DNA of 64,000 nt, from positions 5,967 through 69,966 of the forward strand of contig CAIJZZ010000060.1 of NCBI GenBank assembly GCA_903825255.1, in the 5' to 3' direction. The DNA is from an uncultured bacterium (GTDB taxonomy: Bacteria > Patescibacteriota > Minisyncoccia > Phycocordibacterales > UBA9973). A program made the translations under genes and the position numbers. Below are positions 4,485 through 62,636 of this stretch, in pieces; the first letter of the stretch is position 1; the number at the start of each line of letters is the position of its first letter. The notes below the pieces were generated by a model. The model ran no database searches and was not told the origin of the DNA. It worked only from the letters and a program-made list of their open reading frames with translations.

Positions 4485-6380
4485 ATGAAATTCAGTTACA
4501 ATTGGTTGCAAAATTATTTTAAAGAAAAATTACCGAGCCCGGAGGAAGTTGCGGAAGGGATTATTTTTCATTCTTTTGAAGTAGATGAAATAGAAAAAGT
4601 GGGGGATGATACTATTTTTGATATAAAAATCTTACCTGACAGGGCACATGATTGTCTTTCACATTGGGGTGTGGCAAAAGAAATCGGAGCGATTTTTAGT
4701 TTGGAAATTTTTTCACCAAATGGCTTTTTTCAGGTCCTCGGTTCTCCTTCGTCTGCTTCGCAGACTCGGCCAGACCATTCAAAAAGCCATATTGGTTCAG
4801 AATTAGAAATTAAAATTGAAGATAAAAAGTGTTTGCGTTATATGGGGAGAATTGTGAGAAATATTAAGATAGGGGAAAGTCCAGAATGGCTCCAAAAAAA
4901 GTTGAATGCGATAGGGCAAAAATCTATAAATAACATTGTCGATGCGACCAATTTTGTGATGTTTGATTTAGGTCAGCCGATTCATGCTTTTGATTTAGAT
5001 AAATTGGCCAGCGAAAAAATAATAATTAGAAATGGAAAGATGGGAGAAAAGATTACCACTCTTGATAAAAAAAATATTGATTTAGATGAATCAATGCTAG
5101 TAATAACAGATGAAAAAGAACCTTTAGCTATTGCTGGGATTAAGGGTGGAAATAAAGCAGAAGTTGATGTAAATACAAAAAATATAATTATAGAGGTAGC
5201 AAATTTTGAAGCTATTAGTACCCGAAGGACTGCTAAGAAAATAAATATTTTAACTGACGCAGTAAAAAGATATGAAAATGAAATTTCACCAGAACTTTGT
5301 GAAATAGTTATAAAAGCAATAACTGATTTAATTTATAATTTAGCAGGTGGAGAAATAGAAGAAATTGTTGATATTTATCCACAAAAACAAGAGCAAAAAA
5401 ATATTATTATTTCTGTTGATTACATAAATAAAAGACTTGGGACTTCTTTTACAAAAAGTGAAATTGAGAGTGTTTGGAAAAAATTAAATTTTGAATATAT
5501 TGAAAAGCAGGATGAATTTGAAATAAAAATACCATTTTTACGTATTGATCTTATCGGGCCACATGATTTAACAGAGGAAGTTGTTAGAATTTTAGGCTAT
5601 GAAAAAATCGAAGAAAAAATACCAGAAGTAAAATATGAAAAAGAAATTAATAAAAATTATTTTCAGACGCTTTCTGTTCGAGAAAAACTTTTAAATGAAG
5701 GCTATAGTGAAGTGATGACTTATGCTTTTAGGGATAAAGGAGAAGTAGAAGTATTAGCTTCAGCTTCCGATAAAAAGTTTTTAAGAACTAATTTAACTGA
5801 TGGGTTAAAAGAAAGTTTGAAGTTGAATCAGCTCAATTTGCCATTTTTAGAAATGAAGGAAATTAAAATTTTTGAAATTGGGACAATATTCAAAAAAGAC
5901 TCAGAAGAAATACATGTGGCATATGGTGATAAAAAAGAAATAAAAGAAATGAGCCTGGAAGATTTTTGTAAGAACGCCGAGCCTAATGCTTTTGTTACGT
6001 CTGAAGCACCGTATGTCTTTTCTGAATGGTCTGGCCGAGCCAAAGGCGAGGAGGACCGAGGACCTGAAGAAAAGATTTACGGCGCGGAAAATAAATTTAA
6101 AATGTGGTCTGTGTATCCATTTATTTCTCGTGATGTTGCCGTGTGGTTAGGAGAAGGAGAAGACCCAGAAAAATTAAAACAAATTTTAATTAAAAATGGC
6201 ACGGAGCTTTTAGTTAAAGAACCTTATCTTTTTGATTCATTTACTAAAGAAGGGAAAACGTCTTATGCTTTCAGGCTTATTTTCCAATCATATGACAGGA
6301 CTCTCACTGATGAAGAGATAAATCCAATTATGGTAAAAATAAAACAAGAAATAGAGAAAAAAGGTTGGCAAATTCGTTAG
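4485..6380 (+). CDS. pheT: phenylalanine--tRNA ligase beta subunit (631 aa, shortened)
   Basis: MKFSYNWLQNYF start typical of PheT. B3/4 motif DATNFVMFDLGQPIHAFD. C-terminal FISRDVAVWL...SYAFRLIFQS domain. Lies directly after pheS. Contains two GC-rich in-frame insertions (see repeats). Confidence 0.9.
   Translation: MKFSYNWLQNYFKEKLPSPEEVAEGIIFHSFEVDEIEKVGDDTIFDIKILPDRAHDCLSHWGVAKEIGAIFSLEIFSPNGFFQVLGSPSSASQTRPDHSKSHIGSELEIKIEDKKCLRYMGRIVRNIKIGESPEWLQKKLNAIGQKSINNIVDATNFVMFDLGQPIHAFDLDKLASEKIIIRNGKMGEKITTLDKKNIDLDESMLVITDEKEPLAIAGIKGGNKAEVDVNTKNIIIEVANFEAISTRRTAKKINILTDAVKRYENEISPELCEIVIKAITDLIYNLAGGEIEEIVDIYPQKQEQKNIIISVDYINKRLGTSFTKSEIESVWKKLNFEYIEKQDEFEIKIPFLRIDLIGPHDLTEEVVRILGYEKIEEKIPEVKYEKEINKNYFQTLSVREKLLNEGYSEVMTYAFRDKGEVEVLASASDKKFLRTNLTDGLKESLKLNQLNLPFLEMKEIKIFEIGTIFKKDSEEIHVAYGDKKEIKEMSLEDFCKNAEPNAFVTSEAPYVFSEWSGRAKGEEDRGPEEKIYGAENKFKMWSVYPFISRDVAVWLGEGEDPEKLKQILIKNGTELLVKEPYLFDSFTKEGKTSYAFRLIFQSYDRTLTDEEINPIMVKIKQEIEKKGWQIR
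4720..4790. repeat. GC-rich element bounded by inverted repeats (long variant), in frame in pheT, forward orientation
   Basis: Perfect 10-nt terminal inverted repeat ATGGCTTTTT / AAAAAGCCAT. Core contains GGTCCTCGGT ... GTCTGC-TTC-GCAGAC hairpin ... GGCCAGACCA. Encodes FFQVLGSPSSASQTRPDHSK. Confidence 0.7.
6016..6075. repeat. GC-rich element bounded by inverted repeats (long variant), in frame in pheT, reverse orientation
   Basis: Termini TCTTTTCT / AGAAAAGA. Its reverse complement reads CAGGTCCTCGGTCCTCC...CTCGGCCAGACCATTCAG, colinear with the 4720-4790 copy. Encodes SEWSGRAKGEEDRGPEEK. Confidence 0.7.
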
Positions 6381-6400: not shown

Positions 6401-7942
6401 ATGTCCCTCAGACATTTTTTCAAGAAGAATCTTCTGACTATTTTTAGCGTTCTTTTTTTAATTCTTTTCTCCTTTGTCTTAAATGCTTATGCTACACCAC
6501 CGGACTCTCCCTTTACTCCTGGCGAAACTTTAAACCCAGCCTGTGCTCCCACAGATACAAATTGTAAAGTTGGCATAAGTTCTTTTTCTGGTTGGGGGCT
6601 CACTGGGAATTCAGGCACTGACCCAGCTACCAACTTTATCGGTACGACGGATGATGTACCGTTAGTTTTTAAAGAAAATAATAAAATTGTGGGAAAAATA
6701 GATGAAAATTCAGAAAATATATTTTTTGGTCGTACACAAAATACTGGTGGTACGGGTTCTTTTAATTCTGCATTTGGATCTGATGCTCTATATAGTATTA
6801 CTACTGGAATAGGTAATACTGCTATTGGTTCAAAATCTCTTTCGTCTAATACAGAAGGAAATAATAATACTGTCGTTGGATTTGGTTCACTTAATCGAAA
6901 TATTGGTGGTGGTAGAAATATTGCCTTAGGTAATAATGCAGGTTATTATGAAACTGGTTCAGACAATTTATATATTGATAATCAATCGAGGGCTGACGAA
7001 GCAGACGGTCGTCTTAAATCACTTATTTATGGAAAGTTCGGTGTTGATGTGTTAGGCCAATTTGTTAATATTAATGGAGCCTTAGGAATTATTGATTCAA
7101 ATGGCAGTTATTATTCTATATTTAGAGGTGGTTCTCAGTTAGAAGAGATTTCTTACACTTTACCTGTGACGCAAGGCGGAATAAATACTTTTCTAGAAAA
7201 TGATGGTTCGGGAGTTTTAACTTGGGCTTCAGGTGGTACAGTGGCTAATGCTTGGGATATTTCTGGGAATGCAGGCACTATAGATGGTTCCAATTTCATT
7301 GGAACAAAAGATGACGTACCACTAACTTTCAAGGTTAATAATGAATTAGCTGGAAGGATAGATAATACATTAGAAAATATATTTTTGGGCTATCAAGCTG
7401 GAAATTTAAACATTACAGGGTCTTACAATGTTGCTATTGGTACACAAGCTTTTAATATTGATACGACAGGAAGTAATAATGTTGCCATAGGTCAAGAGAC
7501 ACTTTATTATAATACTACAGGTAGTTCTAATGTTGGTGTTGGGGAAGGATCTCTTGGCTCAAATAGCACTGGAGATAATAATGTTGCTATAGGCGAAGGA
7601 ACACTTTTTACAAATACAGGCAGTAATAATGTTGCTTTAGGTGGTTCTGCTGGATATTATGAAACCACTTCAAATAATTTATACATTGATAATCAAGAAA
7701 GAGGTAGTGAAGCAGAGGGGAGACTTAAATCATTAATTTATGGAAAATTTGATGCAGATCCAGCTAATCAGTTTGTGACAATTAATGGAAAATTAAATGT
7801 GAGTAATGGAGATGTATATGTGGAAAATAGTGCGAATGGAATAATTTTAAAGTCAGCAACCGATAATCATTGTGCTCGGGTAACTTTAACCGGAGCTTCT
7901 GGATCAGATGCACTTAATTATGCAGATATCACTTGTCCATAA
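6401..7942 (+). CDS. secreted or anchored repeat protein with internal two-fold duplication (adhesin / tail-fibre-like Gly-Asn repeats)
   Basis: N-terminal hydrophobic signal (LLTIFSVLFLILFSFVLNAYA). Two ~180-aa homologous halves. Each half has NFIGT.DDVPL.FK.NN..G.ID...ENIF.G, then degenerate G..N.A.G repeats, then LYIDNQ.R..EA.GRLKSLIYGKF. Confidence 0.6.
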   Translation: MSLRHFFKKNLLTIFSVLFLILFSFVLNAYATPPDSPFTPGETLNPACAPTDTNCKVGISSFSGWGLTGNSGTDPATNFIGTTDDVPLVFKENNKIVGKIDENSENIFFGRTQNTGGTGSFNSAFGSDALYSITTGIGNTAIGSKSLSSNTEGNNNTVVGFGSLNRNIGGGRNIALGNNAGYYETGSDNLYIDNQSRADEADGRLKSLIYGKFGVDVLGQFVNINGALGIIDSNGSYYSIFRGGSQLEEISYTLPVTQGGINTFLENDGSGVLTWASGGTVANAWDISGNAGTIDGSNFIGTKDDVPLTFKVNNELAGRIDNTLENIFLGYQAGNLNITGSYNVAIGTQAFNIDTTGSNNVAIGQETLYYNTTGSSNVGVGEGSLGSNSTGDNNVAIGEGTLFTNTGSNNVALGGSAGYYETTSNNLYIDNQERGSEAEGRLKSLIYGKFDADPANQFVTINGKLNVSNGDVYVENSANGIILKSATDNHCARVTLTGASGSDALNYADITCP

Positions 7943-10980: not shown

Positions 10981-10991
10981 AAAGTTTAATT

Positions 10992-11017
10992 AAAAAATCC
11001 CTTAACAGGGATTTTTT
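10992..11017. terminator. bidirectional intrinsic terminator between gyrB and thrS
   Basis: AAAAAATCCC-TTAACA-GGGATTTTTT hairpin with A/T tracts on both sides, lying between convergent genes. Confidence 0.7.
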
Positions 11018-11023
11018 AATTGA

Positions 11024-12754
11024 TTATTTTTTCTTTGAGATTTCTTCTTTAAGTTTTAAGATAAAATCTTCTACAGAAATATCTTCGGTTTTGGTGCCGT
11101 CACGGTTTTCAATAGTTAATTTTTGCGAAGCGACTTCTTTGTCTCCTAAGACAATAACAAAAGGAGTTTTCATATCTTTGGCAGCGTGGATACGTTTGCC
11201 GAGACTGTCATTTCCAGAAAACATTTCCACTCGGATAAATTCTTTCTTTAAGGCATTAAAAATTTCTTGGGCTTTTTCTTCGTGGTTTTCACGGACGGGA
11301 ACGATGGCGACTTGGACCGGTGAGAGCCAAGTAGGGAAGGCTCCAGCATAGTGTTCAATCAATATTCCAATAAATCTTTCGAGTGAGCCATAAATGACTC
11401 GATGTATTACGACTGGAGTTTTTCTAGTCCCATCTTTGTCTGTGTATTCAAGTTCAAAGCGTTTAGGTTGTTGGAAGTCTAGTTGCATCGTGCCCATTTG
11501 CCAATCACGACCGAGTGCATCTTTCATGATGATATCTATTTTGGGTCCATAAAAAGCACCGTCGCCTTCTGCCACAGTATATTCTATGCCAGATTTTTCT
11601 AATACATTATGTAGGGCTTTTTCTGCTTTATTCCAACTTTCAATATCTCCTAAAAATCCTTCTGGTCTAGTACCAAGTCTAAATTTATATTCTAAATTAA
11701 AAATTCCATAAAATTCTTTACAGATTTCCATAATTTTATTATATTCGTCTTCAATCATGTCTTCGGTAATGTAATTATGCGAATCATCTTGCTGAAAAGA
11801 TCGACATCGAAGAAGTCCATTTAAGGTACCAGATCTTTCATATCGATGTAAGCGATCAGTATCAGATAAACGTAAAGGTAAGTCTTTATAACTAACTTGC
11901 ATTGATTTAAAAACAATCATAGCGTTTGGGCAATTCATTGGTTTAATACCATAAACTTCATTTTCACCCATATCAGCGATAAACATATCATCTTTATAAT
12001 GATCCCAGTGTCCTGAGGTTTTCCAAAGTTCTGCTTTATTGACTAACGGACTAGAAATTTCTAGGTAACCCAAGTCTCGATGTTTTTCTCGCCAATAGTT
12101 TTCTAATTCTTTATAAATAATTAAACCTTTTGGTAACCAATAAGGCATCCCTGGAGCTGTCTCATGAAACATTAAAAGGCCTAATTCCTTACCGAGTTTT
12201 TTATGATCTCTTTTTTTAGCTTCTTCACGTAGGGCAACATATTTTTCTAGTTCTTCTTTATTTTCAAATGCGAGCCCGTAAATACGAGTGAGCATTTTAT
12301 TTTTTTCATCTCCACGCCAGTAAGCGCCAGCCACTCGATCTAATTTAAAACTGCCATCTGGGATTTCAGCTTTTGGGTTTTCTAAATGTCCACCTCGACA
12401 AAGATCAGTGAATTTTCCACAAGTATAAAAAGTAATTTTTTCACCCTTGCTAATTATTTCATTTATTAATTCATTTTTATATTCGTTATTAGCAAAATAT
12501 TCTTTAGCTTCAGTCTCAGTTACTTCTTTACTTTCAAAAGTTTTCCAACTTTTTAAAATCTCTCGCATTTTCTTTTCAATTTTTGGTAAATCTTTGTCTG
12601 AAATAGGGGAGGCAAATTCAAAGTCATAATAAAAACCATCATCAATCGATGGTCCGATAGTGTTCTTTGTTCCAGGATACATCTCCAATACTGCGGCTGC
12701 CAATAGGTGCGCTAGTGTATGTCTTAAATTATGCAATTTATCATTTGTTTCCAT
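11024..12754 (-). CDS. thrS: threonine--tRNA ligase (576 aa, no TGS domain)
   Basis: Starts at the editing/second additional domain (HTLAHLLAAAV). Class II core (FRLGTRPE, HRVIYGSLERFIGILIEHYAGAFPTWLSPVQV). C-terminal anticodon-binding domain. Confidence 0.93.
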   Translation of the reverse strand: METNDKLHNLRHTLAHLLAAAVLEMYPGTKNTIGPSIDDGFYYDFEFASPISDKDLPKIEKKMREILKSWKTFESKEVTETEAKEYFANNEYKNELINEIISKGEKITFYTCGKFTDLCRGGHLENPKAEIPDGSFKLDRVAGAYWRGDEKNKMLTRIYGLAFENKEELEKYVALREEAKKRDHKKLGKELGLLMFHETAPGMPYWLPKGLIIYKELENYWREKHRDLGYLEISSPLVNKAELWKTSGHWDHYKDDMFIADMGENEVYGIKPMNCPNAMIVFKSMQVSYKDLPLRLSDTDRLHRYERSGTLNGLLRCRSFQQDDSHNYITEDMIEDEYNKIMEICKEFYGIFNLEYKFRLGTRPEGFLGDIESWNKAEKALHNVLEKSGIEYTVAEGDGAFYGPKIDIIMKDALGRDWQMGTMQLDFQQPKRFELEYTDKDGTRKTPVVIHRVIYGSLERFIGILIEHYAGAFPTWLSPVQVAIVPVRENHEEKAQEIFNALKKEFIRVEMFSGNDSLGKRIHAAKDMKTPFVIVLGDKEVASQKLTIENRDGTKTEDISVEDFILKLKEEISKKK

Positions 12755-30213: not shown

Positions 30214-30930
30214 ATGCGTTTTCATATTATTACAATTTTTCCAGACATCTTTGATTCATATTTAAATGAGTCTATTCTTGGGCGGGCGATAAAAGAAAAG
30301 CATGTTTCTGTTAAATTTTATAATCCACGGGATTACGTAAAAGCCCAAAATAAGAACAATTACAAACCCGTAGATGATCGGCCTTATGGCGGAGGCCCTG
30401 GGATGGTGATGCGACCAGAACCTATCTTGAAAGCAGTAGAAAAGGCTATTTCGACGATTAGCAAAATTTCTTCGGGTCCTCGGTCTGGGGCCAGACCAGC
30501 TCAGAAATTTTCTAATCGTCTCAATAAAAATAAAATTCAAATTATTAATTTTATTCCAAGTGCTGAGAAGTTTACAACCATTGAGGCAAAAAAAATTTCT
30601 AAAAAATATACCGATATTATTTTAATTTGTGGAAGATATGAAGGGATAGATGCACGAGTAGATAAAATTTTAAAAACTAAAAAATATTCTATCGGAGATT
30701 ATGTTTTGACAGGTGGGGAATTACCGGCGATGGTATTGATTGATTGTATTGCCCGTCAAATTCCTGGGGTACTCGGCAAATATGAATCTCTAGAAGAAGA
30801 GCGGGTATCTTCTAGTGAAGTTTACACTCGTCCTGAAATACTTAAATATAATAATAAAAATTATAGAGTTCCGAAAGTCTTACTCTCTGGAAATCATGCA
30901 GAAGTAGAAAAATGGAAGAAAACTCATTAA
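30214..30930 (+). CDS. trmD: tRNA (guanine37-N1)-methyltransferase
   Basis: PYGGGPGMVM, ICGRYEGIDARV, IGDYVLTGGELPAMVLID, LLSGNHAEVEKWK. Carries an in-frame 49-bp repeat element. Confidence 0.93.
   Translation: MRFHIITIFPDIFDSYLNESILGRAIKEKHVSVKFYNPRDYVKAQNKNNYKPVDDRPYGGGPGMVMRPEPILKAVEKAISTISKISSGPRSGARPAQKFSNRLNKNKIQIINFIPSAEKFTTIEAKKISKKYTDIILICGRYEGIDARVDKILKTKKYSIGDYVLTGGELPAMVLIDCIARQIPGVLGKYESLEEERVSSSEVYTRPEILKYNNKNYRVPKVLLSGNHAEVEKWKKTH
30463..30511. repeat. 49-bp GC-rich palindromic mini-element, in frame in trmD
   Basis: Perfect 9-nt terminal inverted repeat AAAATTTCT / AGAAATTTT. Core GGGTCCTCGGTCTGG-GG-CCAGACCAGC. 43/49 identical to the reverse complement of 62241-62289. Confidence 0.8.
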
Positions 30931-42076: not shown

Positions 42077-42090
42077 CTTTAGTTAAATTA

Positions 42091-42115
42091 AAAAATCCCC
42101 GTTAGGGGATTTTTT
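42091..42115. terminator. bidirectional intrinsic terminator between rpoD and the DsbA-like gene
   Basis: AAAAATCCCC-GTTA-GGGGATTTTT. Confidence 0.75.
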
Positions 42116-42131
42116 AATAATTATTTAATTT

Positions 42132-44697: not shown

Positions 44698-45373
44698 TTG
44701 GAAAAGATATGTAATAGTTTTTTTTATAACTCTCGGTTTGTTTTTAACAGCTATTTATTTAAGTGATTATTTTAGCAATAAAAAATTAGATCAATTAAAG
44801 ACGATTCAAGATAATATTTCTGTAGATATTCTTTCTTCAGAAACTCAGTTTTCACTTTTATCTGAACTTTCTTGTAAAAATGTTTCCGATTCAGTCCTTT
44901 CTTCTGAATTAGCTGACTTAGGACATAAACTCGAGTGGGGACAAAATGGAAACGTTGGTACGACGGAGGAGTTGTCTTATTTAAAAAAATATTATTCCTT
45001 ACTAGAAATTAAAGATTATATTTTAATGAAAAAAATATCAGCTCGTTGTAATAAAAAATCAGCTTTTATTCTTTATTTTTATACTACTGCTCAAAATTGT
45101 AGTGAATGTGAAAAGGAGGGAATAGTGCTTTCAACTTTGCGTGATAAATATCCAGAACTCAGGGTTTATTCTTTCGATTACAGTATTGATCTTTCAGCAG
45201 TGAAAGCGATGCTTAATATCTATAAAATCAAAGATACTGCTTTACCAGCTTTAGTCATAGATGATAATGTTTTAACAGGCTTCCATTCTATTGATGAGCT
45301 TGATTCTCGTGTAAGCGATTCTTTTAAACTTCAAAAGCCATTACCAGCATCAGTAAAAAAAATTATTAATTAA
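44681..45373 (+). CDS. hypothetical membrane-anchored protein with CxxC (possible thioredoxin-like)
   Basis: ATG at 44681 (MQQQFDWKRYVIVFF), overlapping the GT2 gene end by 17 nt. TM helix. CSECEKEG motif. Confidence 0.5.
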   Translation: MQQQFDWKRYVIVFFITLGLFLTAIYLSDYFSNKKLDQLKTIQDNISVDILSSETQFSLLSELSCKNVSDSVLSSELADLGHKLEWGQNGNVGTTEELSYLKKYYSLLEIKDYILMKKISARCNKKSAFILYFYTTAQNCSECEKEGIVLSTLRDKYPELRVYSFDYSIDLSAVKAMLNIYKIKDTALPALVIDDNVLTGFHSIDELDSRVSDSFKLQKPLPASVKKIIN

Positions 45374-45376
45374 ATT

Positions 45377-45402
45377 AAAAAGCCTCAATTTTGAGGCTTT
45401 TT
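45377..45402. terminator. bidirectional intrinsic terminator
   Basis: AAAAAGCCTCAA-TT-TTGAGGCTTTTT, lying between a + strand CDS and the - strand tRNA. Confidence 0.7.
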
Positions 45403-45410
45403 AATTATTT

Positions 45411-51190: not shown

Positions 51191-54100
51191 ATGGGGGATA
51201 TTTTACCAAAAAAAACAATAGATCAAAAAGAAGGACTTATTCCTGAAAATATTGAGGTGAATGATAGTGTAAACAAGGAGAATAAGATTATAGAAAATTC
51301 AGAAAATTCAGAAAATTCAGAAAAAATTCTTGAAAAAATTGAGCCTCTTTTAGTTGAAGTAGATCAAATAAACTCTGAAATTGAAGAAAAAAGTGACGGC
51401 CTTTTGGAAAGTATAAAAAATCCTATTTTAGTTGAGAAAGAAAATAGTATTTTAGGAGAGCTTTATCAAAAAGGTGAAAATTTTCTCAAATTAATATCTA
51501 GGCAATTAGCAAGCTATCCTAAAGGAGTTGCAGAGTCTTTCAAAGATAAATATATAAGTAAAAAATCTAATCGTTTATATAATCGTCTTTATAGTAACAA
51601 AGCGATAAGTGAATATACAAATTCACATTCTCGAAAAGAAGAAGCGATCCGTTCTTTTGATTATATATATAAAAGTTCTTTACCACTTTTGAATACTATT
51701 GAGAATGGTTTTTGGGGAAATTCCAAAAATAAGTCTGAAACTATTTCATATGTAAATTCTTCATTATCAATAATTAGCAGACAAGGTATTTCACTAGAAA
51801 AGTATGATGAAGTTTTTAATATTCTTAAGATTTATGAAAACAGCCGAACACTATCTGATGAAAATAAAAATCAACAGAATACCTTTTCAAATATTACTAC
51901 AGAGCTAAGTAAGCATTTATATAGCAAAGAAAACGCTACTGAAGCTGATGAAATTTCTAAAGTATGTAGAAATGATCCATATTTAATTATTGATTATTTA
52001 AAAAATAATTATATTGATGAAAATAAACTTAATCAACAAAAAAATTCAAATTTTTTAGAAGAGCAAGTGGATAAAATAATCGAAGAACATACTGAAAATA
52101 GTCACTGCAATCAGTTTGTTTTAAGTTCTTTTGAAAAAGTTTTAAAAGCGAATCCTGAAAAATATGGATTGGATATTAAAAATAGGGAATTTATTTTTGA
52201 AAATTTTAAAATTGATAATTTTGAAAATTCCTCTAGTAATTATTTAATAAATAATAGTCCCTTTTTTAAAAGGGAGCTTGATAATTTAACAGAAGAAGAT
52301 CTTGATAAATTAATAGGATCTTATACTAGTTATGGTATAAAAGAGGGAAAAGTGCAACTTTTATTATCTTCTACGAATCTACAAGAAAAAGATTTTAAAA
52401 ATATTTTTAATAAAGTTAAAGGTTTTTCTGAAGAAGAAAATGATTATTCAAAAGAAAAATTACTAGAATTATTTAAAAATAACCCAATAATACCATTTTT
52501 AAAATATAAAGAATTTAACTTAAAAACAGAAGACCGAATTGATTTTTTTGAAAAAATTATGGGATTTATGGATAATCCTTTTTTATTTTTAACAAAAATT
52601 CTTTCTGAATTTAACCTCCTTTCTAAGGAAATTCCCGAAGAAAAGTTTGATGAGCTTTTTCAAAAACTTCTTGAAAAATCAATGACTGGCGAAATTAAAG
52701 AAATTAGAGCATTACATGCCTTACTCCCAGCATACGATGTTCCTGCTAAATATAAAGAAATGATTAATAAAGCCTTTTCAGAAGAATATTCTGAAGGAGG
52801 CGGTGCCACTAGAATTAGTAGGATTTTTAGTGAAGAAAATAATTCTCTACAACTTTCTAAGCAGGAAAAATGGCTCAAAGGCAATGCCGTGCTTGCGCCC
52901 AATTTAGAAATTGGGTTTTATAATTCTGGTGACATGAATACTCTTAGGCACTTTTTTTTCGATGTGATAGAAGGAAAAAGACAATCTATAGATAAGGATT
53001 TGCTAATTAAAAAATATGCCGAAAGAATTTACCAAGTTGAGCCAGAAGAAATCATTGATCTTTTTATTATTAGGAAAAAGCTTCCCATGTCTTATTTAGA
53101 TGCATTTTCTGCTAAAATCCAGGATCATGATACAGAAAAGTTGTTTTTACAGTTAGAGGACTGTCTTCGCTTGAATCAAATATCTCAAGCAGAATATAAA
53201 AAAGTATTAATTAGCTTAATAAATAATGCCTATTATGTCGTTGCTGAAAAGTCGCTGGATCGTTCCAAAGAAATTCTTAATCAAGATGAAATAAAAGAGT
53301 TATCTTTAGGTTTTATAAAAAATATAGTCAAACAAGTTGCAAATAAGGATAATTACAGTCGTCCTGATGCTAATAGTCTTCGTAGAATTATTGAATCAAA
53401 ATTTTATGATTCACCTACTATAACTCAAGAAGACAAAAAAATTTTTACCAACAAGCTCTTTGAGGAACTTATTAGCTATAAAAATTTAAATAATGAAATA
53501 TTAGAAATAGTTGATCAAAATAAGGATTTATTTAAAACAGCCTTTGACGATGATAAAAAGAGAGATGATTTTGTCGGTAAATTATTAACAAGCAATGATC
53601 ATCGAGCAATTAGTAATTTGATTGATAGTTATTTATCTGAAATTAAAACTGAAAAAGAATTTAAAAATCCAATTAATCTATCAATCGATGAAGAAAAATT
53701 CAAATCATTATTTAAACACGGTTTATCTTTAGATGATTTAGAAATAGACAATGCTTTAATTGTTAATTTTAAAGCTCTTTCTAAGGAAGAACAAGGGATT
53801 GTAATAAAAAATTTATTGGCTAAGGAAGATATCTTAAGAAATTCTAATGGAGATACAATACGAAATTTTTGTTCTAATATGGTTAATGTTACCCAAAACG
53901 ATAAAATAAATGAAGGAGAAAATAGGATTATCTCAGAAAATGATGCCCAAAATATTTTTTCTAAAATATTTTTTAATAAATCCATAAATCCACAAGTCTT
54001 TAATGATTTAATTTATCATAAGAAAGGATTTTTGACTGAGAATAAAAATATTTTAAATGAATATATTTCAGCTATTGAATTAAAAGGGAGTAGTAATAAT

Positions 54101-56434
54101 TGTTTATCAGCTTTAGAAGAACTAAAATCTACGGAAAAACCAGTTCTTTCAGTGGAGCAAGTAAAGAGTCTTTCTATCGAATTACTAAAAAATAGAAACT
54201 TAGATAAGAATCTTTATCAAATGTATCTAGATTCAACTCCAGATAATTTACAGTTTTATTTAGATCAGGAAATTTTTGATCAAAACATATATAGTATAAG
54301 TATCAACGGCAATGATATGACTACCTCTATTCTTGATTTTTTGGAATTAGAAAAAAAAGTTAAAAATGAAGGTAAGAATGTTATTACTTTAAATGAAAGT
54401 CAAGAAGAGTCGATTGTAGAAAAAATATTAAATTATAATGGAATAAATAGTTCAAATTTTGAAAAACTTTATGATATTGATCAAGAATTATTTTCTGATT
54501 CATTAAAAAATGCATTAAATAAACAAAAAATAGGTGAAGATCCGCTTATGAGTCTTATTAATACCAAAGAAGAAATTTCAAAAGTTTTTGCTTCTGAAAT
54601 CATCGCATATTATTTTAATTATAGAAATAATCGAAAAAATGTATTTGATTTAATTTGTGATAAATATTCATATAGTCCCGAGTTCTTGAAAAAAATAAAG
54701 GAGTATGTTAATAATTTAGGAAACAAAGTAGATCGTTCAGTTTTTAAATCAAAACTTTTACAGAAAGACTTACTTTCTGGAGAAGAACTCAAGGCTTTTT
54801 ATGAAGAAATACGCTCCGAACCGGATTTACAATCCCAAGTGCTTCTTTCAGCTGAAGTGTTGGGTTCCTTGTCTTATACTGGTGACAAAGAAAAAATAGA
54901 TAAAATTTTTGGACCAGAAGAAGTAGAAACTAAAAAAAATCTAGAATTTATTTCTTCTTTTGTTAAAAAATATCCTTTACAAAACAAAGGTAGGACTATT
55001 GCTGTAATGCTTTTTTCTAAAGAATATTTACCTGACAGAAGTATTGGAGAAATAGTAGAAAAAGTGGCTGGTAGACTTTCTAAATATGAAAGAGTTTTAG
55101 AACAATATCAATATAAAGGTATTCCAGCTGGCTTAAAAGCTTCTGTAGGCCTTGAATATGAGATTACCCACTCAACAGCAAATGGTTATAAGGAGTTAAC
55201 TAATCGTGATTTAAAAACAGATATTGTGAGACTAAGTGAAGCAGCTCATATAGGCAATGGAGCAGATGCTGTGCATGAAATAGCTACTCGACCTACTGAT
55301 GAACCATATTTACTTTTCTTAGAAATGCAATTGTTAAATGATTTGGAATATATTGATTTGAATTTTGAACGCTCACCCGAATATCAAAAAGGGGCTAGGG
55401 GCTATCATTTGACTATTGGCGGAGAAACGGGTCTTTCTGTAAATGCAAATACTAATTTTCTTCAGAATTCTATTTTAAGTGCTGGTTGGGGCGGAATATA
55501 TGCTGGTGAAGTCGGCAAAAGGGTTTCTGGTGGACGAGGAGTGACTTTAAGAGGTAGAAGTCCAAATGACGGTCACAATGTTAAGGTTTTTGATAATCCA
55601 ACTTATTCGGTTGAATTAAGGTCTTTATCTATTGATAAAATAGAACCACTACAGCGAGCTATTTCAACTGCTTATAATGGAGCTATCGCTATTCAAGCCT
55701 TAGAAAAATATACAGATTGTTCTTCTGATACGATTAATGATTTTTATGAATCAAATTCTGTAAAAAGTAGTGAAAAGGAATTTATGGAAAAACTTAAAGA
55801 ATCTTCTAAATTAAAAGATGGTTATGATTCTGATCCAAAAAATATAAAAATTATTTATGCTTGGGCAGAGTTAGTGGCTGAAACTAAAGAGGCACTCGAA
55901 TATCATAATAATGAATTTTTAACTGGAGAAACACTCGGCTATTTAAAAAAAGATGGGGTATGGGTAGACTCCGAAGATTTCGGAGGAAATTATAATAGAA
56001 AACGTTTTGACTCTGTAGTTTCTTCAATTGATTCGACTTTATCAGTAGAAGAATATGTAAATTCAACTAAAATTGATTTTAATAAATTATTTTCTAGTTT
56101 TGATGTGGATCTAGCTGATAGTTTAACAAAGGTAAATAATTTATATTTAAAACCCGGTAGTAGAGAATCTGGCGATGAAAAAAATAAGAAAGTAAAATTA
56201 AGTGGTGACCAAGCAAATACAATCTCAATGTTGGAAGTTACAAAGTTTAATAATGAAAATCTTGAACATCGAGATGAGGCTGCCTATCTCAAGGGTACCG
56301 TATTTGATACTTTAGGTGAACGTCGAGAAGGATATTATTATGTTCAAGGGGGAAGTGAAAAAATGATTACCCATGCTTGTCAGATAGCTCTTTTGAATTT
56401 TAATAAAAAAATGGAAGAAATTTTAAAGAATTAA
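51191..56434 (+). CDS. giant hypothetical protein (1747 aa) with C-terminal glutamine-synthetase-like amidoligase signature
   Basis: Uninterrupted 5.2-kb ORF. About 1300 aa of Asn/Lys/Glu/Ile-rich, mostly helical-looking sequence. Residues ~1310-1500 contain VGLEYEI...GADAVHEIATRP...RGYHLTIGG...SVELRSL. Confidence 0.6.
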   Translation: MGDILPKKTIDQKEGLIPENIEVNDSVNKENKIIENSENSENSEKILEKIEPLLVEVDQINSEIEEKSDGLLESIKNPILVEKENSILGELYQKGENFLKLISRQLASYPKGVAESFKDKYISKKSNRLYNRLYSNKAISEYTNSHSRKEEAIRSFDYIYKSSLPLLNTIENGFWGNSKNKSETISYVNSSLSIISRQGISLEKYDEVFNILKIYENSRTLSDENKNQQNTFSNITTELSKHLYSKENATEADEISKVCRNDPYLIIDYLKNNYIDENKLNQQKNSNFLEEQVDKIIEEHTENSHCNQFVLSSFEKVLKANPEKYGLDIKNREFIFENFKIDNFENSSSNYLINNSPFFKRELDNLTEEDLDKLIGSYTSYGIKEGKVQLLLSSTNLQEKDFKNIFNKVKGFSEEENDYSKEKLLELFKNNPIIPFLKYKEFNLKTEDRIDFFEKIMGFMDNPFLFLTKILSEFNLLSKEIPEEKFDELFQKLLEKSMTGEIKEIRALHALLPAYDVPAKYKEMINKAFSEEYSEGGGATRISRIFSEENNSLQLSKQEKWLKGNAVLAPNLEIGFYNSGDMNTLRHFFFDVIEGKRQSIDKDLLIKKYAERIYQVEPEEIIDLFIIRKKLPMSYLDAFSAKIQDHDTEKLFLQLEDCLRLNQISQAEYKKVLISLINNAYYVVAEKSLDRSKEILNQDEIKELSLGFIKNIVKQVANKDNYSRPDANSLRRIIESKFYDSPTITQEDKKIFTNKLFEELISYKNLNNEILEIVDQNKDLFKTAFDDDKKRDDFVGKLLTSNDHRAISNLIDSYLSEIKTEKEFKNPINLSIDEEKFKSLFKHGLSLDDLEIDNALIVNFKALSKEEQGIVIKNLLAKEDILRNSNGDTIRNFCSNMVNVTQNDKINEGENRIISENDAQNIFSKIFFNKSINPQVFNDLIYHKKGFLTENKNILNEYISAIELKGSSNNCLSALEELKSTEKPVLSVEQVKSLSIELLKNRNLDKNLYQMYLDSTPDNLQFYLDQEIFDQNIYSISINGNDMTTSILDFLELEKKVKNEGKNVITLNESQEESIVEKILNYNGINSSNFEKLYDIDQELFSDSLKNALNKQKIGEDPLMSLINTKEEISKVFASEIIAYYFNYRNNRKNVFDLICDKYSYSPEFLKKIKEYVNNLGNKVDRSVFKSKLLQKDLLSGEELKAFYEEIRSEPDLQSQVLLSAEVLGSLSYTGDKEKIDKIFGPEEVETKKNLEFISSFVKKYPLQNKGRTIAVMLFSKEYLPDRSIGEIVEKVAGRLSKYERVLEQYQYKGIPAGLKASVGLEYEITHSTANGYKELTNRDLKTDIVRLSEAAHIGNGADAVHEIATRPTDEPYLLFLEMQLLNDLEYIDLNFERSPEYQKGARGYHLTIGGETGLSVNANTNFLQNSILSAGWGGIYAGEVGKRVSGGRGVTLRGRSPNDGHNVKVFDNPTYSVELRSLSIDKIEPLQRAISTAYNGAIAIQALEKYTDCSSDTINDFYESNSVKSSEKEFMEKLKESSKLKDGYDSDPKNIKIIYAWAELVAETKEALEYHNNEFLTGETLGYLKKDGVWVDSEDFGGNYNRKRFDSVVSSIDSTLSVEEYVNSTKIDFNKLFSSFDVDLADSLTKVNNLYLKPGSRESGDEKNKKVKLSGDQANTISMLEVTKFNNENLEHRDEAAYLKGTVFDTLGERREGYYYVQGGSEKMITHACQIALLNFNKKMEEILKN
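51293..51329. repeat. in-frame 9-bp tandem repeat (GAAAATTCA)x3 plus a degenerate 4th unit
   Basis: Encodes ENSENSENSEK near the N-terminus of the giant ORF. Confidence 0.8.
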
Positions 56435-62212: not shown

Positions 62213-62240
62213 AATTAATAAAAATAAAAAACAAAAATAT

Positions 62241-62289
62241 AAAATTTTCAAGCTGGTCTGGCTCCAGACCGAGGACCCGAGAAAATTTT
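62241..62289. repeat. 49-bp GC-rich palindromic mini-element, intergenic copy (reverse orientation relative to the trmD copy)
   Basis: Perfect terminal inverted repeat AAAATTTTC / GAAAATTTT. Core CTGGTCTGG-CT-CCAGACCGAGGACCC. 43/49 identical to the reverse complement of 30463-30511. Followed by a T-rich run. Confidence 0.8.
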
Positions 62290-62335
62290 ATATTTTTTTA
62301 ATTGCTTTTTTAATATTTTGTTTTATAATCAAATT

Positions 62336-62626
62336 AGCCTTATATTGGATAACTGCTCCGCTTACAGCGGGGAGGAAAGTCCGAACACACAGTCTTGACG
62401 TAAGTCTAGACAAACGTAGCGGGTAATGCCCGTCGGGAGCAATCCTAGAGTTGCGAACAGTGACGAACCGATTTAGTTCGGGTGAAACGGCAAAATACTT
62501 ACGCGTGTGCAAGATCGTGTCCTGATGTAAATCAGGAAGAATCGCTTGAGCCTGTGAGTAATTACAGGCCTAGATAAATAGTTGTCACCCTTCGGGGTAC
62601 AGAATTCGGCTTATAGATATAAGGCT
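62336..62626 (+). ncRNA. rnpB: RNase P RNA (bacterial type A, compact)
   Basis: P4 halves GGGGAGGAAAGTCCGAACAC and ACAGAATTCGGCTTAT. GCTTGAGCC...GGCCTAGATAAAT block. P1 pairing AGCCTTATAT (62336-45) with ATATAAGGCT (62617-26). ORF 62288..62512 (-) is therefore spurious. Confidence 0.93.
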
Positions 62627-62636
62627 AAAAAATGAA

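What the first reader, a model, noticed from the sequence alone, without database searches (positions are those of the whole stretch)
6016..6075. Second in-frame copy in pheT, inverted relative to the first
The reverse complement of 6016-6075 reads TCTTTTCTTCAGGTCCTCGGTCCTCCTCGCCTTTGGCTCGGCCAGACCATTCAGAAAAGA. It is colinear with the 4720-4790 copy, sharing CAGGTCCTCGGT.CTCCT... and ...CTCGGCCAGACCATTCA. One essential gene therefore carries the element twice, 1.2 kb apart and in opposite orientations, and both copies keep the frame open. Here the element is read on its other strand as SEWSGRAKGEEDRGPEEK. Tolerance in both orientations implies strong selection for frame-preserving, stop-free copies. 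The inverted pair could also promote inversion or long-range RNA pairing within the pheT mRNA.
Basis: seen in the sequence. Interest (0 to 1): 0.7.

Follow-up and report, generated by a model that had tools for sequence, protein, structure and literature searches.

The report
In-frame hairpin repeat inside pheT
The segment is a real, translated copy of a short GC-rich hairpin repeat that is scattered through genes of ultra-small Patescibacteria, each copy sitting on its own site-specific stem, so it resembles the in-frame "selfish" palindromes of Rickettsia but has unusual anatomy.

Summary
Window 6016-6075 (minus strand) is colinear with 4720-4790, with z = 17 against dinucleotide shuffles. 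Both copies lie in frame in pheT. Two shorter relatives lie in trmD (30453-30520) and in an intergenic spacer (62233-62297).

A profile built only from unrelated metagenomic copies hits exactly these four places in the window. The family occurs across Patescibacteria. I pooled 160 copies.

- **Conserved part:** cTTTTnnTCA-GGTCCTCGG-[variable apical hairpin]-CCAGACC-ATTCnnAAAAg.
- **Arms:** beyond the conserved part each copy has a locus-specific inverted repeat, about 26 nt from the core. All four Watson-Crick pair types occur, with no sequence conservation.
- **Location:** intragenic copies always keep the frame and sit in linkers or loops. The stop-containing frame is never used.
- **Age:** the pheT site-2 copy is old. 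Related genomes carry the same copy flipped, and the window copy has lost its apical stem.

Best reading: a non-autonomous selfish palindromic element, like RPE or REP in behaviour. Its arms are probably made or kept by templated copying of one flank, and this palindromy would also allow in-situ inversion.

Three things remain unexplained:
- The core is conserved far more than synonymous sites in the same gene.
- Arm mismatches are strand-polar.
- Orientation is biased toward the G-rich strand.

No mobilising enzyme was found. I found no description in the searchable literature.

The parts
6010..6081 (-). Copy c2 (the finding), whole hairpin. The core GGTCCTCGG..CCAGACC lies on the minus strand at 6028-6064. 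The junction loops are 6024-6027 and 6065-6067. The locus-specific arms are 6010-6023 and 6068-6081 (CGTATGTCTTTTCT / AGAAAAGATTTACG). It is translated in pheT as ..YVFSEWSGRAKGEEDRGPEEKIYG..
   Evidence: fold z -3.8; HMM E 5e-15
4716..4795 (+). Copy c1, whole hairpin in pheT. The core is 4733-4776. The junctions are TCA 4730-4732 and ATTC 4777-4780. The arms are 4716-4729 and 4781-4795 (CCAAATGGCTTTTT / AAAAAGCCATATTGG). It is translated as ..SPNGFFQVLGSPSSASQTRPDHSKSHIG..
   Evidence: fold z -4.9; E 7e-13
30453..30520 (+). Copy c3, short-centre form in trmD. The core is 30475-30497. The arms are 30453-30471 and 30503-30520 (GACGATTAGCAAAATTTCT / AGAAATTTTCTAATCGTC). It is translated as ..TISKISSGPRSGARPAQKFSNRL..
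   Evidence: I1; z -5.8; AF2 gives pLDDT<50 at residues 87-105
62233..62297 (-). Copy c4, short-centre form, intergenic. It lies between the class II ribonucleotide reductase gene (ends 62212) and RNase P RNA (starts 62337). The core lies on the minus strand at 62255-62277. The perfect 17-nt arms are 62233-62249 and 62281-62297. A looser palindrome spans 62206-62324.
   Evidence: I1, I4; z -4.5
4485..6380 (+). pheT ORF (631 aa) that hosts c1 and c2. The Pfam domains are B3_4 115-288, B5 309-372, CLM 375-474 and FDX-ACB 542-631. The c1 peptide (aa 79-102) and the c2 peptide (aa 511-530) therefore fall in inter-domain linkers.
30214..30930 (+). trmD ORF (238 aa) that hosts c3, in the loop after the helix ..PILKAVEKAIS.

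Best explanation
Window 6016-6075 is one of four copies in this window of a short palindromic repeat family that is widespread in Patescibacteria.

**Shown: anatomy.** The conserved unit is an imperfect hairpin:
- a T-rich/A-rich inner stem (cTTTTnn / nnAAAAg);
- an asymmetric internal loop (TCA / ATTC);
- a GGTC/GACC stem with conserved bulges;
- a length-variable GC-rich apical hairpin.

**Inferred: what it is.** It behaves as non-autonomous selfish DNA. Copies land, or persist, anywhere they are tolerated. Inside genes only copies that keep the frame, avoid the two reverse-strand TGA triplets and sit in linkers or surface loops survive. They are then translated as extra loop peptides.

**Shown: the stem.** Each copy sits at the tip of a longer, locus-specific stem.

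**Inferred: how the stem arises.** The stem comes from templated copying of one flank onto the other. This could be a fold-back or template switch nucleated by the core hairpin, either at insertion or afterwards as in quasipalindrome correction. The copying adds about one arm's length of sequence and keeps the two arms complementary while they drift. The same palindromy lets the asymmetric core flip in place. This explains why the pheT site-2 copy is minus-oriented here and in L004 but plus-oriented in L006.

**Not explained.** The enzyme or process that spreads and conserves the core is unknown.
For: **Family and specificity**
- An HMM built from foreign copies hits only the four window sites.
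- A hairpin scan of the window (arm at least 9 nt, GC-rich spacer) finds only this family.
- In genome contigs, the roughly 30 low-GC hits are all Patescibacteria and all have flanking inverted repeats. The roughly 90 high-GC hits do not.

**Arms**
- The median paired arm is 26 nt, against 0 when partners are swapped. The alignment score is at least 10 in 67.5% of copies, against 0%.
- Per-position pairing is 0.67-0.98 for 17 positions, against 0.35-0.5 when shuffled. All four pair types occur and no base is conserved beyond about 10 nt.

**Mobility and turnover**
- The four window copies sit at unrelated loci.
- The same centre subtype occurs at pheT site 1 in L002 and at site 2 in L005.
- Orthologous sites are filled, truncated or reduced to footprints in relatives: L005 site 1, P0003 site 2, L129 and L127.
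- Three configurations occur at pheT site 2 in 22 of 120 homologues.

**Flip**
- L004 and L006 share a centre that is unique among 250 loci, in opposite orientation.

**Translation**
- All intragenic copies are in frame, and the TGA frame is used 0 times.
- The intergenic class is genuinely intergenic.
- Inserts lie in linkers or low-confidence loops.

**One arm is added**
- In TrmD the net insertion minus the core peptide has a median of 7 aa, about 21 nt.

**Concerted arms**
- Orthologous copies differ in both arms with compensation: window against L127 in trmD, and GGG/CCC against AAA/TTT in L038 and L139.

**Precedent**
- RPEs insert in frame in Rickettsia genes (PMC10969869).
- Template switching and arm conversion have been proposed for coding palindromes (PMC6649704).
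Against: - No transposase, HUH enzyme or recombinase is encoded among the 20 window ORFs scanned with Pfam.
- No long parent element bounded by the two boxes was found in 1.2 Mb of related loci.
- There is no clear target-site duplication, only a 2-nt excess of 20 against 8.9 expected.
- No pair of near-identical genomes with a filled and a virgin site was available, so the insertion junction and the origin of the arms are inferred, not seen.
- The core is far more conserved than neutral sites. The L004 and L006 cores are 66/68 identical although flipped, while four-fold sites in the same gene are 52% identical. Pure junk DNA would not predict this.
- Arm mismatches are strand-polar and copies are orientation-biased. 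This hints at a strand-specific process or function that this model does not supply.
- Most pooled copies were retrieved with patterns that require intact boxes. Some are orthologues of one another, so counts are not independent.
Confidence: 0.55

Rival explanations
1. The core is a host-useful, strand-specific DNA signal. It would be a hairpin formed by the bottom strand (GAATGGTCTGG..CCGAGGACCTGA) when single-stranded and recognised by a conserved Patescibacteria protein, for example in replication or priming, chromosome organisation or DNA uptake. Selection, not mobility, would then keep it intact. The genes merely tolerate it.
For: - The core is 66/68 identical between L004 and L006, and the boxes are identical between the window and L004. 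Four-fold sites in the same genes are 34-56% identical. The peptide is read on opposite strands, so protein-level selection cannot explain this.
- Unpaired nucleotides (TCA/ATTC, the CTC bulge) are conserved in MAGs labelled Paceibacteria, Nomurabacteria, Kaiserbacteria and Saccharibacteria.
- Arm mismatches on the element's plus strand are C-containing 135 times against G-containing 29 times. The direction is the same in coding-plus, coding-minus and intergenic copies.
- The plus strand lies on the G-rich strand 75 times against 18, and 25 against 5 for intergenic copies.
Against: - Copies decay, are truncated or are lost in close relatives with no replacement nearby.
- Occupancy of a given site is patchy: 22 of 120 at pheT site 2.
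- Density is low, at 4 per 64 kb.
- Copies sit in loops of unrelated housekeeping proteins rather than at any regular position.
- Cores at orthologous sites are sometimes no more alike than random family members.
- Both orientations occur at the same site.
Confidence: 0.2
2. The locus-specific arms are pre-existing palindromes, either old terminators or the remains of earlier copies. The core would be an element that targets hairpin loops, so the arms are the target rather than a product of insertion.
For: - Hot spots are re-used in different frames and orientations: pheT site 2, and the trmD, ksgA-like, mnmA-like and helicase loops.
- Cores at orthologous sites can differ as much as random family members while the arms persist.
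- L129 keeps the left arm and a footprint without a core.
- c4 sits in a long AT-rich palindrome (I4).
Against: - Perfect 15-30 nt palindromes inside conserved coding sequence are not expected before insertion.
- Core-free trmD and pheT homologues of the shortest length class show no palindrome at the site.
- The TrmD length budget fits one added arm.
- In the window no GC-poor hairpin of this kind was found without a core.
Confidence: 0.12
3. The element works as RNA. It could be a regulatory or processing hairpin in the mRNA, or the two oppositely oriented pheT copies could pair over 1.2 kb to control pheT expression. This second form is the first reader's suggestion.
For: - Local folds are far more stable than shuffles, z -3.8 to -5.8.
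- A c1-c2 duplex is predicted at -90.7 kcal/mol, against -58.1 for the two local hairpins.
- An RNase III gene is nearby (synteny with L001/L128).
Against: - Both orientations occur within one gene and at the same site in relatives, so the transcript carries different sequences.
- In mRNA sense, G.U pairs are rarer than A.C mismatches, 13 against 32. This is the opposite of RNA-level selection.
- Mismatch polarity follows the element, not the transcript.
- The inverted c1/c2 arrangement is not conserved. P0015 has both in the same orientation, and most homologues have one or none.
- There is no Rfam match at gathering or permissive thresholds.
- No terminator-like site is called at c4.
Confidence: 0.06
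4. The resemblance is chance or compositional. GC-rich codons in an AT-rich genome would produce it, or convergent peptide motifs.
For: The genome is 26-38% GC and the segments are GC-rich islands.
Against: - Exact 18-mer and 17-mer sharing has 0.03-0.04 matches expected.
- z is 17 against dinucleotide shuffles.
- An independent HMM gives E 5e-15.
- The two copies are on opposite strands, so they encode unrelated peptides.
Confidence: 0.01

Closest known systems
Rickettsia palindromic elements (RPE)
   Same: Both are short palindromic repeats of a reduced bacterial genome. Both are found between genes and, unusually often, inside unrelated housekeeping genes as in-frame fusions that add a peptide segment compatible with protein function (PMC10969869).
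   Different: - RPEs are about 150 bp and confined to Rickettsia. Here the conserved unit is about 55-75 nt and occurs in Patescibacteria.
- RPE arms are part of the element and lose identity with time (as summarised in PMC6649704). Here the outer arms are locus-specific, covary and stay paired.
- Here the core flips in place.
- Sequence relatedness to RPEs was not tested.
REP/BIME elements with RAYT (Y1 HUH) transposases
   Same: Both are short imperfect palindromes in many copies, with conserved unpaired bases. Strand-specific behaviour is expected for REPs from single-strand DNA chemistry. Here strand polarity of mismatches and an orientation bias are seen.
   Different: - REPs are extragenic and carry a GTAG or CGTC head (PMC3733652). 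About 61% of these copies are intragenic, and the consensus has neither tetranucleotide.
- No RAYT-like gene lies in the window.
Bacterial MITEs (e.g. Correia, ERIC, Coxiella QMITE)
   Same: Both are non-autonomous, have terminal inverted repeats, fold into a hairpin and are occasionally fused in frame to ORFs (PMC10969869, PMC5896051).
   Different: No convincing target-site duplication was found, and no parent IS with the same ends. MITE flanks are direct repeats of the target, whereas here the flanks are inverted repeats.
Coding palindromes in Nematomorpha mitochondrial genes
   Same: Both are inverted repeats inside protein-coding genes with both arms translated. Arms stay complementary by an active process, for which template switching or arm conversion was proposed. 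Gain and loss are dynamic (PMC6649704).
   Different: Those palindromes have no shared conserved core and are much longer, up to 284 bp. Here a conserved core caps every hairpin.
GC-rich palindromic clusters of AT-rich yeast and other organelle genomes
   Same: Both are GC-rich mobile hairpins in AT-rich genomes that can sit in coding sequence. The organelle side of this comparison is from my own knowledge and was not checked here.
   Different: The present family is bacterial and chromosomal. It also occurs in Patescibacteria with 50-57% GC. Locus-specific arms are not a described feature of the organelle clusters, as far as I know.
Integron attC sites and IS200/IS605 ends (single-strand hairpin substrates)
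   Same: In both, the structure is conserved while stem sequence varies, extrahelical bases are conserved, and one strand is the active one.
   Different: There are no R''/R' boxes, no cassette arrays and no integrase or TnpA nearby. Copies are dispersed singly in housekeeping genes.

Membership tests
Rickettsia palindromic elements (RPE) | Repeated palindromic element found both between genes and in frame inside unrelated protein-coding genes | tested here: met
   Three of the 4 window copies are in frame in pheT and trmD and one is intergenic. In the pooled set 93 are intragenic in frame and 53 are intergenic.
Rickettsia palindromic elements (RPE) | Element of about 100-150 bp belonging to the RPE sequence families of Rickettsia | tested here: not met
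   The conserved unit is about 55-75 nt. The host is Patescibacteria by protein homologues and record titles. Direct sequence comparison with RPE consensus sequences was not run.
REP/BIME (RAYT-associated) | Extragenic location | tested here: not met
   About 61% of evaluable copies lie inside ORFs.
REP/BIME (RAYT-associated) | GTAG or CGTC tetranucleotide head next to the palindrome | tested here: not met
   The family consensus aacTTTTtcTCAGGTCCTCGGtTCTCcGGGTCCCTatCCCgGCCAGACCATTCaaAAAAgt contains neither tetranucleotide on either strand.
REP/BIME (RAYT-associated) | Cognate RAYT (Y1 transposase) gene in the genome | tested here: inconclusive
   None was found among the 20 window ORFs scanned with Pfam. 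The remaining window genes were identified only by synteny with annotated relatives. The rest of the genome is not available.
MITE | Terminal inverted repeats and hairpin-forming, non-coding unit | tested here: met
   The inner stem cTTTTnn/nnAAAAg and the GGTC/GACC stem are conserved. Fold z-scores are -3.8 to -5.8.
MITE | Target-site duplication (direct repeat) flanking the element | tested here: inconclusive
   Outside the arms, 2-nt direct repeats occur 20 times against 8.9 expected and 3-nt repeats 7 against 3. Nothing longer was found.
MITE | Parent insertion sequence with the same ends | tested here: inconclusive
   There is no credible pair of left and right boxes 90-6000 nt apart in 1.2 Mb of related low-GC loci. 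The single pair found, in L148 at 5.9 kb, was not examined. The right-box pattern is loose. Whole genomes were not searched.
Integron attC | R''/R' core sites (RYYYAAC / GTTRRRY), arrayed with cassettes next to an integrase | tested here: not met
   The consensus lacks these boxes. Copies are single and dispersed in housekeeping genes, and no integrase lies in the window.
Any curated RNA family (Rfam 15) | Covariance-model match | tested here: not met
   Only RNase P RNA and one tRNA reach gathering score in the window. The permissive scan of 4600-6200 gives only sub-threshold chance hits.

The most novel reading that the evidence does not exclude
The element is the substrate of an undescribed strand-specific single-strand DNA process in Patescibacteria. 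The bottom-strand hairpin would be recognised through its conserved unpaired bases. Insertion or maintenance would proceed by fold-back synthesis that duplicates one target flank in inverted orientation. The result is a transposition-like mechanism whose footprint is an inverted rather than a direct target duplication, with in-place flip-flop of the core. Alternatively, the same hairpin serves a host function, which would explain why the core is conserved far beyond synonymous sites.
Probability: 0.25. Interest if true: 0.85.

Novelty: new variant of a known kind. Interest (0 to 1): 0.6.

Why it matters
**For annotation.** Patescibacteria are a large share of bacterial diversity and have tiny genomes. 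Finding a phylum-wide repeat translated inside pheT, trmD, and (in related loci) ksgA-, mnmA-, tgt- and helicase-like genes matters for annotation. These length differences between orthologues are inserted hairpins, not lineage-specific protein features.

**For evolutionary theory.** It bears on how selfish DNA persists in streamlined genomes.

**For mechanism.** The locus-specific, covarying stems give a natural data set for templated palindrome formation in bacteria. If the inverted flank duplication is made at insertion, that would be a new kind of insertion footprint.

**For future work.** The strand polarity and the strong core conservation suggest a protein partner worth looking for.

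Tried and rejected
- **Rfam.** The gathering scan of the whole window and the permissive scan of 4600-6200 gave no family.
- **Terminator rule at c4.** No site was called.
- **Genome-contig scan.** About three quarters of the 120 rows were chance hits in high-GC genomes. They served only as a negative control for flanking inverted repeats.
- **Viral contigs.** No match.
- **Autonomous parent element.** The search for one bounded by the two boxes found nothing credible.
- **Target-site duplication.** Only a weak 2-nt excess.
- **Arms travelling with the element.** Similar arms were found almost only at orthologous loci.
- **Split genes among the no-ORF copies.** The eight flagged cases are adjacent separate genes (TpiA/Pgk, AtpE/AtpF, Map, PNPase, RecA).
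- **Single-sequence AlphaFold run of TrmD.** Useless, with mean pLDDT 34. It was repeated with an alignment.
- **Missing DNA.** Two homologue contigs had no DNA on file.
- **Core against flank identity in orthologous pairs.** The analysis was noisy, because a 0.60 flank-identity threshold admits non-orthologues in AT-rich DNA. Only pairs at 0.72 or above were read.
- **Literature.** Six searches gave no paper that describes this family in CPR/Patescibacteria.
Full report
**1.

The window is AT-rich, with 26-38% GC in 2-kb windows. Its proteins are closest to Paceibacteria/Nomurabacteria, within Patescibacteria.

ORF 4485..6380 is PheT.

- The two long shared strings, CAGGTCCTCGGTNCTCCT and CTCGGCCAGACCATTCA, each occur only at 4731-4748/6049-6066 and 4765-4781/6023-6039. 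Shuffles give 0.03-0.04 expected matches.
- The local alignment of the two copies scores 64, against 15.7 +/- 2.8 in dinucleotide-preserving shuffles, z = 17.
- The trmD and intergenic copies are related to each other (z = 20) and to the pheT copies (z = 5-9).
- The copy in question is translated in frame as SEWSGRAKGEEDRGPEEK.

**2. There are four copies in the window, and no more**

GGTCCTCGG...CCAGACC occurs at four places:
- c1: 4733-4776, plus strand, in pheT.
- c2: 6028-6064, minus strand, in pheT.
- c3: 30475-30497, plus strand, in trmD.
- c4: 62255-62277, minus strand, between the ribonucleotide reductase gene and RNase P RNA.

An HMM built from 68 copies taken from other organisms' metagenomic contigs hits exactly these four sites and nothing else below E = 0.5. 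A generic scan for hairpins with a GC-rich spacer finds only this family in the window.

**3. Anatomy**

Every copy is the tip of a long hairpin, with fold z-scores of -3.8 to -5.8. The stems differ between copies:
- c1: CCAAATGGCTTTTT / AAAAAGCCATATTGG
- c2: CGTATGTCTTTTCT / AGAAAAGATTTACG
- c3: GACGATTAGCAAAATTTCT / AGAAATTTTCTAATCGTC
- c4: AAAAATATAAAATTTTC / GAAAATTTTATATTTTT

To see whether this is general, I collected copies from three sources:
- a genome-contig scan;
- a metagenome-contig scan;
- contigs that encode PheT and TrmD homologues.

In the genome scan the roughly 30 low-GC hits were all Patescibacteria, with MAGs labelled Paceibacteria, Nomurabacteria, Kaiserbacteria and Saccharibacteria. 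All of them had flanking inverted repeats. The roughly 90 hits in high-GC genomes had none and are chance matches.

Pooling gave 160 distinct copies.
- The conserved unit is cTTTTnnTCA | GGTCCTCGG - variable GC-rich apical hairpin - CCAGACC | ATTCnnAAAAg.
- Beyond about 10 nt from the core no base is conserved, yet left and right flanks pair.
- The median arm is 26 nt, against 0 when each left flank is paired with another copy's right flank. The alignment score is at least 10 in 67.5% of copies, against 0%.
- Position by position, pairing is 0.67-0.98 for 17 positions, against 0.35-0.5 when shuffled. All four Watson-Crick types are present at each position.

Caveats: the metagenome pattern forced CAGG and ATTC at the junctions. 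Both patterns required intact boxes. Some copies are orthologues of each other.

**4. Where copies sit**

Of 152 evaluable copies:
- 53 have no ORF across them.
- 72 are intragenic in the plus orientation. Frame usage is 48/20/4, giving peptides of the types QVLGSP..RPDHS, SSGPR..ARPFRK and FRSSD..ARPF.
- 21 are intragenic in the minus orientation. Frame usage is 19/2/0, giving NGLAG..RGPE and EWSGR..RGPE.
- 6 have more than one open frame across them.

The unused reverse frame is the one that reads TGAATGG as a stop. So five of the six frames, not six, can be open. The forward openness is what a GC-rich core gives without special selection.

The 53 no-ORF copies are truly intergenic. They fill short spacers between separate genes. 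The eight cases that looked like possible split genes are adjacent genes such as TpiA/Pgk, AtpE/AtpF, Map, PNPase and RecA. No intragenic copy breaks a frame, which fits translation rather than removal from the RNA.

Where the inserts fall in the proteins:
- In PheT the two inserts lie before the B3_4 domain, and between the CLM and FDX-ACB domains.
- In TrmD the insert coincides with a low-confidence loop, pLDDT below 50 at residues 87-105, in an AlphaFold model built with 61 homologues.

**5. History of the pheT and trmD copies**

Among 120 PheT homologues (589-665 aa), two sites are hot spots. Site 1 carries a recognisable family peptide in 7 homologues. Site 2 carries one in 22, in three configurations.

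DNA comparison shows several things.
- L004 (P0010) has the site-2 copy in the minus orientation, as in the window.
- L006 (P0029, 82% PheT identity to P0010) has the same copy in the plus orientation and another frame.
- The centre AATAG(A/T)ATCTCCTTCGGAGATAGAAGC is shared by L004 and L006 and is found nowhere else in 250 loci. These are therefore orthologous copies that flipped in place.
- The window's c2 has the same boxes and centre edges but lacks the apical stem-loop.
- P0003, which first looked empty, keeps a CATTCAAAAA remnant.
- L005 keeps only the right half at site 1.
- L129 (trmD) keeps the left arm plus a TTTTCTTCTGGTTCAAAAAT footprint.
- The centre subtype found at site 1 in L002 occurs at site 2 in L005.

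The sites are therefore long-occupied, and copies there gain, lose, shrink and invert.

**6. Arms evolve in concert**

Orthologous copies differ in both arms with compensation.
- trmD, window: ACGATTAGCAAAATTTCT / AGAAATTTTCTAATCGT.
- trmD, L127 (86% protein identity): GTTGCTCGAAGGTTTTCT / AGAAAATCTTCAGGCAAC.
- pheT site 2: CCGTA/TACGG against GCCAGA/TCTGGC against CATCAGAT/ATCTGATG.
- L038 against L139: GGG/CCC against AAA/TTT.

In TrmD, the net insertion relative to the shortest class, minus the core peptide, is 7 aa at the median (IQR 6-7). That is about one arm, not two.

This fits a model in which one flank is native and the other is its inverted copy. It could be made at insertion by fold-back synthesis, or later by template switching that overwrites a flank. 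Template switching and arm conversion are the mechanisms proposed for coding palindromes in hairworm mitochondria (PMC6649704). I could not tell these timings apart, because no near-identical filled/empty pair was available. The closest relative has 70-86% protein identity.

**7. What does not fit simple junk DNA**

(a) Core conservation.
- The L004 and L006 cores are 66/68 identical although inverted.
- The window's c2 boxes are identical to those of L004.
- Four-fold degenerate sites in the same genes are only 34-56% identical.
- Because the peptide is read on opposite strands, protein-level selection cannot be the cause.
- Yet other orthologous pairs have cores as different as random family members, and copies do decay (L127 right box).

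(b) Strand-polar arm mismatches.
- On the element's plus strand, mismatches are C-containing 135 times and G-containing 29 times.
- A.C occurs 66 times against G.T 21 times, p = 1e-6.
- Per copy the split is 45 against 13.
- The direction is the same in coding-plus, coding-minus and intergenic copies.
- The bottom strand would therefore fold better, or G on the top strand is lost faster.
- In mRNA sense, G.U (13) is rarer than A.C (32), which argues against selection on mRNA structure.

(c) Orientation bias.
- The plus strand lies on the locally G-rich strand 75 times against 18, and 25 against 5 for intergenic copies.
- Between co-directional genes the count is 19 against 7. Convergent spacers are favoured over divergent ones, 12 against 4.

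Together these hint at a strand-specific single-strand DNA step, as in IS200/IS605, REP/RAYT or attC systems, or at a host function.

Searches for a partner found nothing:
- No transposase, HUH enzyme or recombinase is encoded among the window ORFs scanned.
- No long parent element was found.
- There is no copy in viral contigs.
- There is no clear target duplication.

**8.

An inversion between c1 and c2 would invert 1.2 kb of an essential gene, so it should not be recoverable. The inversion supported by the data is the in-place flip of a core.

c1 and c2 are nearly complementary in the mRNA. A duplex is predicted at -90.7 kcal/mol, against -58.1 for the two local hairpins, so pairing is physically possible. 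But the arrangement is not conserved. P0015 has both sites filled in the same orientation, and most homologues have one copy or none. I treat the pairing as an incidental consequence.

**9. Comparison with known systems**

- It works like Rickettsia palindromic elements, which are in-frame palindromic repeats in housekeeping genes (PMC10969869). It is not a member: the host and size differ, and the stems are locus-specific.
- It fails two defining REP features, extragenic location and a GTAG/CGTC head (PMC3733652).
- It has MITE-like inverted termini, but no clear target duplication or parent IS.
- No Rfam family matches.
- Six full-text searches found no description of such elements in CPR/Patescibacteria. 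The library does not cover subscription journals.

**10. Verdict**

The thing itself is a new variant of a known kind. It is an in-frame selfish palindromic repeat, distinguished by:
- a conserved core on locus-specific, covarying stems;
- in-place flipping;
- strand polarity;
- a distribution across Patescibacteria.

My confidence that it is a repeat-family member translated in frame is above 0.95. My confidence that it is essentially selfish DNA, with arms made by templated copying, is about 0.55.

Noticed in passing
window 6401-7942 (+): This 513-aa ORF directly after pheT has no Pfam match. It is built from a 51-nt (17-aa) periodic repeat, with 8 or more units in two blocks (6798-6954 and 7410-7665), plus a 137-nt duplication (6912-7048 and 7623-7759). 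The syntenic gene in L001 (578 aa) also has no Pfam hit.
   Followed up: partly
window 10981-11024, 42079-42122, 45366-45409: These are three similar AT-flanked short GC-stem palindromes (AAAAAATCCCnnnnGGGATTTTTT) at gene ends. They look like bidirectional intrinsic terminators. They are unrelated to the element studied.
   Followed up: no
L002 4489-4549 and 11506-11574; TrmD homologues P0128, P0146, P0159, P0172 and others: Other, unrelated GC-rich hairpin insert families occupy the same permissive loops in relatives. Examples are the peptide TPSRKRATPQEG at the trmD site, YPLGGGGKYIHPGAGVTPQEG at pheT site 2 of P0002, and AACCTGCCCGC..GCAGGCGGGG in a ligase gene. In-frame hairpin inserts therefore seem to be a general habit of these genomes, not a property of one family.
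   Followed up: partly
PheT alignment, positions about aa 210 and aa 589 of the window protein: Several homologues carry 7-aa inserts rich in G/P/S/A codons (GSTGSPQ, PASSAGG and variants) at two further fixed positions. They may be remnants of other small GC-rich inserts.
   Followed up: no
window 62337-62629 (+): The RNase P RNA (bacterial class A, 118 bits) spans only 293 nt against a 367-position model, so it is a reduced form. Copy c4 lies 40 nt upstream of it.
   Followed up: no
window 4485-6380: This PheT, at about 590 aa without the inserts, has no Pfam match between the N-terminal region and the B3_4 domain that starts at residue 115. Copy c1 sits in that stretch. From my own knowledge, that is where canonical PheT proteins of about 800 aa carry their tRNA-binding domain.
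   Followed up: no
L144 (3.8 kb, three copies) and L151 (three copies): Some metagenomic contigs carry three family copies within a few kilobases. Copy density therefore varies strongly between genomes, and these would be good places to look for recent activity.
   Followed up: no
window 51191-56434 (+): This is a 1747-aa ORF that I did not characterise.
   Followed up: no
L128 10858-12408 (-): A large serine recombinase gene (Resolvase, Recombinase and Zn_ribbon_recom domains) lies directly downstream of the trmD gene that carries a family copy. It is followed by HTH and Mrr-like genes. This is probably an unrelated integrated element, as it is absent from the syntenic position in the window and in L127.
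   Followed up: no
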